From Escherichia phage Ptacy1532: a DNA stretch of 64,000 nt. The notes under the pieces are model-generated. The model did not search any database and was not told the DNA's origin. It was given only the letters and a program-made list of their open reading frames with translations. Positions 31,971 to 32,586 of the stretch are shown here, piece by piece. The position numbers were made by a program, and so were the translations under genes. The DNA lies in sequence record PQ863255.1; one strand, written 5' to 3'. How positions within the stretch are numbered: the first letter of the stretch is position 1; each line of letters starts with the position of its first letter.

Positions 31971-32180
31971 TCAGTAATAAATTACTTTAGACATAAAAGA
32001 ACCCGAGCTAGGGTCTTCGTACCAGCGATGAATGTCAGCACTTTTAACAGTTCCTATTAGAGCTTTCATGTTCTTTTTAGCGACACGAGCCTCTTTGCGA
32101 GTGTTAAACAGTTTGATATTATCTTTACCTAAGTGTTGTTTCTGTTCCCAAACAACACGAACAGCCCACATCTTTTTCAT
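31971..32180 (-). CDS. small basic protein, member of a 3-gene tandem paralog set
   Basis: MKK.W.VRV ... TR.EAR ... K ... SKV.YY pattern shared with 32180..32389 and 32389..32586. Confidence 0.5.
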   Translation of the reverse strand: MKKMWAVRVVWEQKQHLGKDNIKLFNTRKEARVAKKNMKALIGTVKSADIHRWYEDPSSGSFMSKVIYY

Positions 32181-32389
32181 TAGTAATGTACCTTTCCGCT
32201 GATATAAATACGACCAGAGGAATACTCCTTGGCCTTATGGATACTAATGCTCTTAGTTAAGTCCATATTGAACATAGACTTTTTAAAATCTCGAGCTTGT
32301 TGACGGGTGGGCAGTGCAGTCATAGTCATACCACCTGATGCCCACTTAATCTTCGCTAACCAGAACTGTCTCATAGTGATTGGTCTCAT
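32180..32389 (-). CDS. small basic protein, member of a 3-gene tandem paralog set
   Basis: See 31971..32180. Confidence 0.5.
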   Translation of the reverse strand: MRPITMRQFWLAKIKWASGGMTMTALPTRQQARDFKKSMFNMDLTKSISIHKAKEYSSGRIYISGKVHY

Positions 32390-32586
32390 TAATAATAAAC
32401 CTTGCTGTTGGCAAAAAGAGCACCTTCGTTATTCACAATAGCTTTTCCTATTGTAATCTTACCTGACAGACCTATCCCCTTAAAAATCTTCTTAATTCGA
32501 CGGGCGTGCTCTCGAGTATTAACAAAATCTACAGATTTTATATCACCTGTCTTGTTATCATGTACACGAACAATCCACTTTTTCAT
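32389..32586 (-). CDS. small basic protein, member of a 3-gene tandem paralog set
   Basis: See 31971..32180. Confidence 0.5.
   Translation of the reverse strand: MKKWIVRVHDNKTGDIKSVDFVNTREHARRIKKIFKGIGLSGKITIGKAIVNNEGALFANSKVYY

What the first reader, a model, noticed from the sequence alone, without database searches (positions are those of the whole stretch)
31971..32586. Additional tandem duplications of small genes across the minus-strand block
Besides the 10-member family there are further local paralog sets: three basic ~65-aa proteins at 31971-32586 (MKK.W.VRV ... SKV.YY), three at 61318-62048 (PVV..C core), a pair at 25165-25705 (TART.V.LR...GKFISY...PFPKG) and a pair at 52383-52875. 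Repeated local gene duplication with divergence is a striking feature of this genome and marks these loci as evolving under host-interaction pressure.
Basis: seen in the sequence. Interest (0 to 1): 0.45.

Follow-up and report, generated by a model that had tools for sequence, protein, structure and literature searches.

The report
Ancient tandem paralogs of small basic proteins
Three adjacent 65-69-residue genes in this phiEco32-like (Kuravirus) coliphage are true but very old duplicates of one small, highly basic protein family found only in this phage subfamily; this is ordinary phage gene-family growth, and the function is still unknown.

Summary
The window is a Kuravirus (phiEco32-like) E. 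coli phage. The three minus-strand ORFs at 31971-32586 (A, B, C) are real paralogs. Composition-preserving shuffles give z 9.9, 9.9 and 5.1. Profile-profile probabilities are 96, 90 and 81%, and all three hit phrog_4939. The AlphaFold2 models of B and C, the two paralogs modelled, both show a beta-beta-alpha-beta-beta fold.

Two other claimed sets hold: 25165-25705 and 52383-52875. The trio at 61318-62048 does not.

The duplication is ancient. There is no DNA similarity between copies. Four paralog clades (A-D) each have one ortholog per genome across three genera. Every junction in the array is the same 1-nt overlap, TAY-TRA-TG.

A and B are nearly universal (94 and 98 of about 99 records). 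C (64) and D (41) are accessory, and this phage lacks D.

dN/dS is 0.26-0.30. That is purifying selection, but 4-7 times looser than in neighbouring enzyme genes, and variation sits in loop cassettes.

The family has 23 representative clusters among 1.84 billion proteins. It has no Pfam, PDB-sequence or specific fold match. All members have pI 9.7-11.1.

My inferred best guess is co-produced small proteins that bind a polyanion, probably nucleic acid. The 'host-interaction pressure' reading is only partly supported. Interest is low to moderate.

The parts
32389..32586 (-). Paralog C (65 aa, pI 10.3). First gene of the array. Accessory clade, present in 64 of about 99 related phage records.
   Evidence: ORF; phrog_4939 E 3.8e-25; AF2 beta-beta-alpha-beta-beta, pLDDT 79; tblastn count.
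32180..32389 (-). Paralog B (69 aa, pI 10.6). The most conserved member, present in 98 records. The N-terminal extension RPIT appears to be translated: codons 1-12 have pN 0 with pS 0.31.
   Evidence: AF2 pLDDT 92.8, pTM 0.74.
31971..32180 (-). Paralog A (69 aa, pI 10.1). Last gene of the array, present in 94 records. Its C-terminal hairpin occurs as three allele classes.
32387..32391 (-). C/B junction TAATG. The stop of C and the start of B overlap by 1 nt.
   Evidence: Sequence. The same TAY-TRA-TG junction occurs at every tandem junction of the dcd-proximal array in 16 of 16 loci.
32178..32182 (-). B/A junction TAATG (1-nt overlap).
32583..32789 (-). Unrelated 68-aa gene (phrog_2347) just upstream, joined to C by an ATGA overlap. 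It is absent from phiEco32, where C directly follows dcd.
32790..33323 (-). dCTP deaminase, the conserved upstream anchor of the array in every relative examined.
   Evidence: Annotation of the relatives; PF22769 in the metagenomic relatives.
31938..31945 (-). AATGTATA, the core of the motif tAATGTATAtA reported for phiEco32 and SU10 middle and late promoters. It lies in the 73-bp spacer after A, so the triplet closes the upstream (early/replication) transcription unit.
   Evidence: PMC4281155.
31568..31897 (-). gp68-like conserved 109-aa gene (phrog_10984), the conserved downstream anchor and first gene after the promoter motif.
29847..30326 (-). HNH endonuclease ORF (159 aa). It occupies the slot between thioredoxin and ThyX where relatives carry paralog D, so this phage has no D copy.
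   Evidence: Pfam HNH_3 E 6.6e-7. The family HMM finds only 3 hits in the window. D lies in this slot in WFI101126, KBNP1711 and NJ01.
25165..25449 (-). Member 1 of the confirmed pair (94 aa, phrog_6814).
25451..25705 (-). Member 2 of the confirmed pair (84 aa, phrog_6814).
52624..52875 (-). Member 1 of the confirmed pair (83 aa, phrog_1972).
52383..52616 (-). Member 2 of the confirmed pair (77 aa from the internal ATG, phrog_1972).
61318..62048 (-). Paralogy is not demonstrated.

Best explanation
Shown: A, B and C are diverged tandem duplicates of one ancestral gene of about 65 codons. The gene encodes a small, very basic protein with a beta-beta-alpha-beta-beta fold. The family is restricted to phiEco32-like phages (Gordonclarkvirinae and close metagenomic relatives). 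It had already split into four paralog lineages before the present genera diverged. These are A and B (near-universal core), C (accessory, same array) and D (accessory, about 2 kb downstream between thioredoxin and ThyX). The array always sits directly downstream of the dCTP deaminase region. It ends the transcription unit that precedes the first phage-sigma promoter motif. Its genes are joined by an invariant Tyr-codon/stop/ATG 1-nt overlap.

Inferred mechanism: the overlap couples translation, so the paralogs are made together in fixed proportion. Each keeps a common scaffold: Trp on beta1 packing against the invariant Ala of the helix, and an 'I-H-K' beta3. Each also keeps a common basic patch (T-R-x-x-A-R-x-x-K-K at the helix start, net charge about +9) and a conserved C-terminal [KR]-V-x-Y-COOH. 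I propose that they bind a polyanionic target, most probably nucleic acid (phage or host DNA or RNA) during the replication phase. They may act as a mixed A/B(/C/D) assembly. The variable loop cassettes would tune specificity or partner contacts.

Confidence in the shown part is about 0.9. Confidence in the nucleic-acid or polyanion-binding mechanism is about 0.35-0.4; the confidence value given for this explanation refers to the mechanism.

For: Ancient origin: no DNA repeats. Four clades with one ortholog per genome. 91 homologs fall cleanly into three groups with at least 64% identity within and 25-34% between.

Restricted family: 23 representatives among 1.84 billion. The three distant representatives that lie on contigs long enough to read (P0100, P0103, P0106) are in phiEco32-like synteny: exonuclease, nucleotidyltransferase, DCD, array, gp68-like, ferritin-like, thioredoxin, ThyX. 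P0108 was found only on contigs under 1 kb.

Real genes under purifying selection: dN/dS 0.26-0.30, and B residues 1-38 invariant with pS 0.13-0.31.

Coupling: TAY-TRA-TG at every tandem junction of the dcd-proximal array in 16 of 16 loci, including distant ones (sequence).

Basic charge in all 42 aligned members: pI 9.7-11.1, median net +9. The median pI of small ORF products in the window is 7.8.

Invariant W, R, A, R, K, and nearly invariant T and C-terminal Y.

Position at the end of the early unit, upstream of the AATGTATA promoter motif (PMC4281155).

Against: High basicity also fits binding to an acidic protein.

A alleles move between genera independently of B: phiEco32 A and KBNP1711 A differ at 2 residues, while their B proteins are about 55% identical. 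That is not what a tightly co-evolving obligate heteromer would predict.

C and D are dispensable in many phages.

The proteins were not detected in the SU10 proteome, although small Lys/Arg-rich proteins are hard to detect.

I could not inspect model coordinates, so surface exposure of the conserved Arg and Lys residues is inferred from helical periodicity only.
Confidence: 0.4

Rival explanations
1. The paralogs are small protein-binding modulators or inhibitors of host factors (host takeover or anti-defence). Each would be specialised for a different target or target variant, and the conserved C-terminal V-x-Y-COOH tail or the basic helix would dock into an acidic pocket of the target.
Against: A and B are near-universal, and B is extremely conserved within Kuravirus, unlike typical arms-race genes. 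Gene-wide dN/dS is well below 1. The fold matches are in the noise for a 65-residue alpha/beta sandwich. No defence-related family matched, although PADLOC itself was not scanned.
Confidence: 0.3
2. They are accessory or regulatory subunits of the phage nucleotide-metabolism or replication machinery encoded around them (dCTP deaminase, ThyX, thioredoxin, Dps-like protein, nucleotidyltransferase).
For: Both insertion sites of the family lie inside this enzyme cluster: downstream of dcd, and between thioredoxin and ThyX. This synteny holds even in distant metagenomic relatives.
Against: Local duplication alone explains the proximity. The copies are not adjacent to any one enzyme consistently: a 68-aa gene or an HNH gene may intervene. 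No sequence or fold link to known enzyme subunits was found.
Confidence: 0.12
3. This is the first reader's reading in its strong form: recent, ongoing duplication and diversification driven by host-interaction pressure (a gene accordion).
For: Copy number differs between relatives, from 2 to 4 per genome. There is cassette-like variation.
Against: Copies share no DNA similarity. Clades are orthologous across genera. The differences in copy number are presence or absence of old paralogs, in some phages alongside HNH endonuclease genes in the same slots, not new duplications. dN/dS is 0.26-0.30.
Confidence: 0.08
4. The similarity is chance or compositional, or the ORFs are not genes.
For: A-C is not significant by BLASTP within the window set. 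The proteins are short and Lys/Arg-rich.
Against: Shuffle tests, profile-profile comparison, a shared PHROG, shared predicted folds, and conservation under purifying selection in 14 taxa.
Confidence: 0.01

Closest known systems
PHROGs family phrog_4939 (unknown function)
   Same: A, B and C each match the whole 67-position profile at E 1e-25 to 1e-27. The remote-homology clustering behind PHROGs therefore already groups these genes.
   Different: PHROGs gives no function. It does not record that the members are tandem paralogs, the four-clade structure, or the conserved junction.
phiEco32 gp69-gp71 / SU10 gp069-gp071 / WFI101126 gp073-gp075 (annotated hypothetical proteins)
   Same: These are direct orthologs in the same position between dCTP deaminase and the gp68/Dps-like genes.
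   Different: None was characterised in the papers I could search. The alleles of A and C in this window are minority alleles. A is at least 95% identical in 6 records and C at least 90% in 4 records.
DUF2188 (PF09954, 'YdaT-like' small proteins)
   Same: They look alike by eye: about 70 aa, with W-x-V on the first strand, T-[KRQ]-x-x-A opening the helix, and an 'IH' strand followed by a Gly turn. hhalign aligns the first half in that register.
   Different: The match is not significant: probability 4.1%, E 0.01, 24 columns. No Pfam hit for any of 42 members. DUF2188 ends in DP-x-PPKG and is not strongly basic. I do not file the family here.
T4 Dmd and other small alpha/beta phage inhibitor proteins
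Lineage-specific tandem paralog families of small ORFan proteins in phage early regions (general phenomenon)
   Same: Head-to-tail arrays of short genes, diverged to the limit of sequence detection, restricted to one phage lineage, with accessory members that come and go.
   Different: Here the core pair is strongly conserved and the junction is invariant. This points to co-production rather than simple redundancy.

Membership tests
Tandem paralog family (gene duplication) | Pairwise or profile similarity beyond chance after compositional control | tested here: met
   Shuffle z 9.9, 9.9 and 5.1. hhalign 96%, 90% and 81%.
Tandem paralog family (gene duplication) | Same fold and topology | tested here: met
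Tandem paralog family (gene duplication) | Head-to-tail adjacency on one strand | tested here: met
phrog_4939 | Full-length match to the family HMM | tested here: met
   E 4.7e-27, 2.2e-27 and 3.8e-25, covering profile positions 1-67 or 2-67 of 67.
Arms-race 'accordion' expansion | Recent copies with high DNA identity | tested here: not met
   The only repeats are a 20-nt patch at 80% identity and a 13-nt chance match.
Arms-race 'accordion' expansion | Gene-wide positive selection (dN/dS above 1) | tested here: not met
   0.26-0.30. About 1 or more only in short windows: A codons 57-68 at 1.08, and C alignment columns 53-64 at 1.8, the latter on very few substitutions.
Arms-race 'accordion' expansion | Copy-number variation among close relatives | tested here: met
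   B in 98, A in 94, C in 64 and D in 41 records. This is presence or absence of old paralogs, not new copies.
DUF2188 (PF09954) | Match to the Pfam HMM at or near the gathering score | tested here: not met
   No hit at E up to 5 for any of 42 members, nor for the three window proteins at E up to 1.
DUF2188 (PF09954) | Profile-profile similarity to bona fide DUF2188 proteins | tested here: not met
   hhalign probability 4.1%, E 0.01. The DUF2188 alignment was of low diversity, so sensitivity was limited.
Nucleic-acid-binding small basic proteins (functional class, not a homology family) | Conserved high positive charge | tested here: met
   pI 9.7-11.1 and median net +9 in 42 members.
Nucleic-acid-binding small basic proteins (functional class, not a homology family) | Demonstrated DNA or RNA binding, or homology to a known binding domain | not testable with these tools
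   No homology was found. Binding needs an experiment.

The most novel reading that the evidence does not exclude
A, B, C and D together form a previously unrecognised phage-encoded heteromeric assembly of 7-kDa basic proteins. It would coat or organise nucleic acid (a mini 'chromatin-like' or RNA-chaperone system) during replication of phiEco32-like phages. The invariant C-terminal Tyr tail would link subunits or recruit a host factor.
Probability: 0.1. Interest if true: 0.55.

Novelty: new member of a known kind. Interest (0 to 1): 0.25.

Why it matters
This is mainly an annotation result. It turns three, or family-wide four, 'hypothetical proteins' of a therapeutically used phage group (the Kuravirus and relatives: phiEco32, SU10, ES17 and BASEL collection members) into one defined family. 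The family now has a confident fold model, a short list of invariant residues to mutate, a core pair (A, B) and accessory members (C, D). It also tempers the idea that paralog arrays in this genome mark active arms-race loci, because this one is old and mostly conserved. If the proteins do bind nucleic acid or act as a complex, they would be a compact system to study. As it stands the finding is ordinary.

Tried and rejected
1. DUF2188 lead. I recalled this family from memory for both the triplet family and the 25165/25451 pair, which ends in PFPKG. I fetched real PF09954 proteins, aligned them and ran hhalign. Probabilities were 4.1% and 0.4%, so I rejected the lead.

3. Sequence-based function. 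Pfam, NCBIfam and PDB sequence searches gave nothing.

4. The search for related loci with the family alignment failed because no stretch was conserved enough. With protein B alone it returned only three known phages.

5. tblastn of the distant members P0103 and P0100 against the phage records found nothing or only the known family. Their context came from the look-up of encoding contigs instead.

6. Literature searches for paralogs, duplications or gp69-71 in phiEco32-like phages found no description. SU10 proteomics did not detect these proteins.

7. A first bootstrap tree run timed out and was repeated with fewer replicates.

8. Paralogy of the trio at 61318-62048 was tested with ortholog profiles from five relatives and rejected as unproven.

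Full report
**What the window is.** Megablast of 30000-36000 finds 99 phage records, almost all Escherichia phages of the phiEco32 group. The closest is vB_EcoP_WFI101126 at 98% identity, in the genus Kuravirus, subfamily Gordonclarkvirinae. In SU10 and phiEco32 the three ORFs of the finding correspond to gp069-071 and gp69-71. All are annotated as hypothetical proteins. They lie between dCTP deaminase and a conserved 109-aa gene followed by a Dps-like protein.

**Checking the observation.**

The coordinates are exact. C is 32389-32586 (65 aa), B is 32180-32389 (69 aa) and A is 31971-32180 (69 aa), all on the minus strand.

- *BLASTP within the window.* With compositional adjustment against a 126-ORF set, A-B scores 1e-3 and B-C 1.8e-4. 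A-C does not pass.
- *Shuffle test.* Against 3000 composition-preserving shuffles, z is 9.9, 9.9 and 5.1.
- *Homologs.* A search of 5.8 billion proteins returned 91 homologs. They fall into exactly three groups, with at least 64% identity within a group and 25-34% between groups.
- *Profile comparison.* hhalign of the three group profiles gives 96%, 90% and 81% probability over essentially the full length.
- *PHROGs.* All three hit phrog_4939 end to end.
- *Fold.* AlphaFold2 models of C (pLDDT 79) and B (pLDDT 92.8) both show beta1-beta2-alpha-beta3-beta4.

The triplet is therefore real paralogy, not a compositional artefact.

Of the other sets in the finding, the pair at 25165-25705 is strong: E 5e-13, z 21, both phrog_6814. 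The pair at 52383-52875 is supported mainly by a shared PHROG (phrog_1972) and z 5.9.

The trio at 61318-62048 is not supported. I built ortholog profiles from five relatives. T1-T2 reaches only 6.5% hhalign probability (shuffle p 0.04), and T3 matches neither.

**Anatomy.** The three genes, and the unrelated 68-aa gene upstream, are joined without spacers. The junctions are ATGA, then TAATG, then TAATG.

I ran a family HMM over 16 loci: the window, 13 isolates from three genera and two metagenomic relatives. Every tandem junction in the dcd-proximal array is the same 1-nt overlap, Tyr codon-stop-ATG (TAY-TRA-TG).

Downstream of A is a 73-bp spacer containing AATGTATA at 31938-31945. This is the core of the motif tAATGTATAtA that the SU10 paper reports for the phiEco32 and SU10 middle and late promoters. 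That paper places a promoter upstream of CDS68 and puts the early/middle boundary between CDS69 and CDS68. No minus-strand sigma-70-like promoter and no convincing terminator lies inside the array.

So A, B and C are the last cistrons of the upstream unit, which also carries primase/helicase, the polymerase exonuclease subunit, the nucleotidyltransferase and dcd. They look translationally coupled. That last step is an inference from the overlaps.

**Family extent and evolution.**

*Size of the family.* An exhaustive HMM search of 1.84 billion cluster representatives found only 23 representatives. The distant members with readable context lie in phiEco32-like synteny. One metagenomic phage has three tandem members right after DCD. 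A Suseptimavirus-like contig has two after DCD plus two more between thioredoxin and ThyX.

*A fourth paralog.* D sits in that second slot in WFI101126, KBNP1711 and NJ01. The window has no D. Its slot holds an HNH endonuclease ORF instead.

*Counts.* tblastn counts among about 99 related records are B 98, A 94, C 64 and D 41. SU7-type phages carry only B and A in the array. ES17 and EcoN5 lack C and have an HNH gene plus two unrelated small ORFs there.

*Age of the duplications.* A neighbour-joining tree resolves the clades A (96), B (76), C (93) and D (70), each with one member per genome. No DNA similarity remains between the copies. The duplications therefore predate the split of the genera. 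Today's copy-number differences are losses or replacements of old paralogs.

*Horizontal exchange.* Alleles also move between genera. A of phiEco32 and A of KBNP1711 differ at 2 of 69 residues, although their B proteins are about 55% identical.

**Selection.**

Nei-Gojobori dN/dS over 11-14 taxa:

| Gene | dN/dS |
|---|---|
| A | 0.30 |
| B | 0.26 |
| C | 0.28 |
| dcd | 0.04 |
| Dps-like | 0.07 |
| gp68-like | 0.05 |
| upstream 68-aa gene | 0.15 |

Within Kuravirus, B residues 1-38 never change, although pS is 0.13-0.31. Variation sits in the end of the helix and the following loop in all three paralogs. It also sits in the beta1-beta2 loop and the C-terminal hairpin of A. That hairpin occurs as three discrete allele classes with pN/pS about 1.1.

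This is purifying selection on a common scaffold, with cassette-like variable loops. It is not gene-wide diversifying selection.

**What the protein looks like.**

- W on beta1, and R, A, R, K on the helix, are invariant across 42 aligned members from all clades. The T that caps the helix (T-R-x-x-A-R-x-x-K-K) and the C-terminal Y are nearly invariant (at least 90%).
- An I-H-K motif on beta3, a Gly in the last turn, and the C-terminal motif [KR]-V-x-Y-COOH are typical of most members.
- By strand alternation and helical periodicity, the Trp and the Ala probably pack against each other in the core. The Arg and Lys residues would flank the buried face. This is inference, because I could not access the model coordinates.
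- Every member has pI 9.7-11.1 and a net charge of about +9.
- There are no Pfam, NCBIfam or PDB sequence matches.
- The visual resemblance to DUF2188 was tested and is not significant.

**Most likely mechanism.** The shown facts are these:

- a conserved core pair;
- obligatory co-transcription;
- an invariant coupling junction;
- a conserved basic patch;
- uniformly high positive charge;
- expression alongside the replication and nucleotide-metabolism genes.

From these I infer co-produced small proteins that bind a polyanion, most likely nucleic acid, possibly as mixed assemblies. The loops would tune specificity. I put this at about 0.35-0.4.

The main rival, at about 0.3, is that they bind and modulate host proteins. 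This fits the faster evolution, the loop cassettes and the accessory status of C and D. A role as accessory subunits of the neighbouring enzymes is possible but weakly supported (about 0.1). The strong 'ongoing arms-race duplication' reading is largely refuted.

**Comparison with what is known, and novelty.** The genes are already deposited as hypothetical proteins and grouped by PHROGs. I found no paper that describes them. Tandem arrays of small lineage-specific genes are common in phages. New here are the four-clade structure, the restricted distribution, the invariant junction, the confident fold model and the selection profile. I rate it a new member of a known kind, with low to moderate interest.

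Noticed in passing
window 29847-30326 (-); compare L001 792-1001 (WFI101126): Between thioredoxin and ThyX this phage has a 159-aa HNH_3 endonuclease ORF. Its closest relative has a fourth member (D) of the small basic family in that slot. In ES17 and EcoN5, loss of paralog C also coincides with an HNH gene after dcd. O18-011 has an extra ORF of the same size at the same position (not checked for an HNH domain) and still keeps C. Homing-endonuclease traffic may drive turnover of the accessory paralogs.
   Followed up: partly
Scores: 49211-49459 vs 49456-49710 at 3.6e-12; 50906-51127 vs 54173-54391 at 1.9e-7, and vs 55097-55441 at 6.8e-4; 54617-54871 vs 54868-55107 at 5e-5; 48966-49217 vs 54868-55107 at 0.011. 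Not analysed further.
   Followed up: no
window 6495-7547 (+) and 7560-8528 (+): Two adjacent large plus-strand ORFs in the structural module (350 and 322 aa) are paralogs: 32% identity over 274 residues, E 1.8e-10.
   Followed up: no
L003 (phiEco32) 2710-2919 and L004 (KBNP1711) 2716-2925: Paralog A is 97% identical between phages of different genera, while the adjacent B and C are only about 55% identical. This indicates horizontal exchange of a single small gene, or part of the array, between genera.
   Followed up: partly
window 61782-62048 and 60860-61225; RefSeq records of relatives (L016-L018): Small ORFs of 87-121 aa are named 'polymerase' and 'terminase' in several RefSeq records, and 'polymerase' in phrog_14176. 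The names look spurious for proteins of this size. The 121-aa 'terminase' has an N-terminal hydrophobic segment, so it may be a membrane or secreted protein.
   Followed up: no
window 25165-25705 (-): The two phrog_6814 paralogs share a strongly conserved C-terminal 40 residues: TART.V.LR..GKFISY....AVE.L.PFPKG. Their N-terminal halves have diverged and differ in length. The PFPKG ending recalls DUF2188, but profile comparison gave 0.4% probability.
   Followed up: yes
window 20015-20022 (-), 26430-26437 (-), 55514-55521 (-): There are further minus-strand copies of the AATGTATA promoter-motif core. The window has 7 in all against 3.0 expected, and 3 of 100 shuffles reach 7. I read the one at 26430 as lying in the spacer between the ORFs ending at 26393 and starting at 26448, so it may be another middle promoter.
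   Followed up: no
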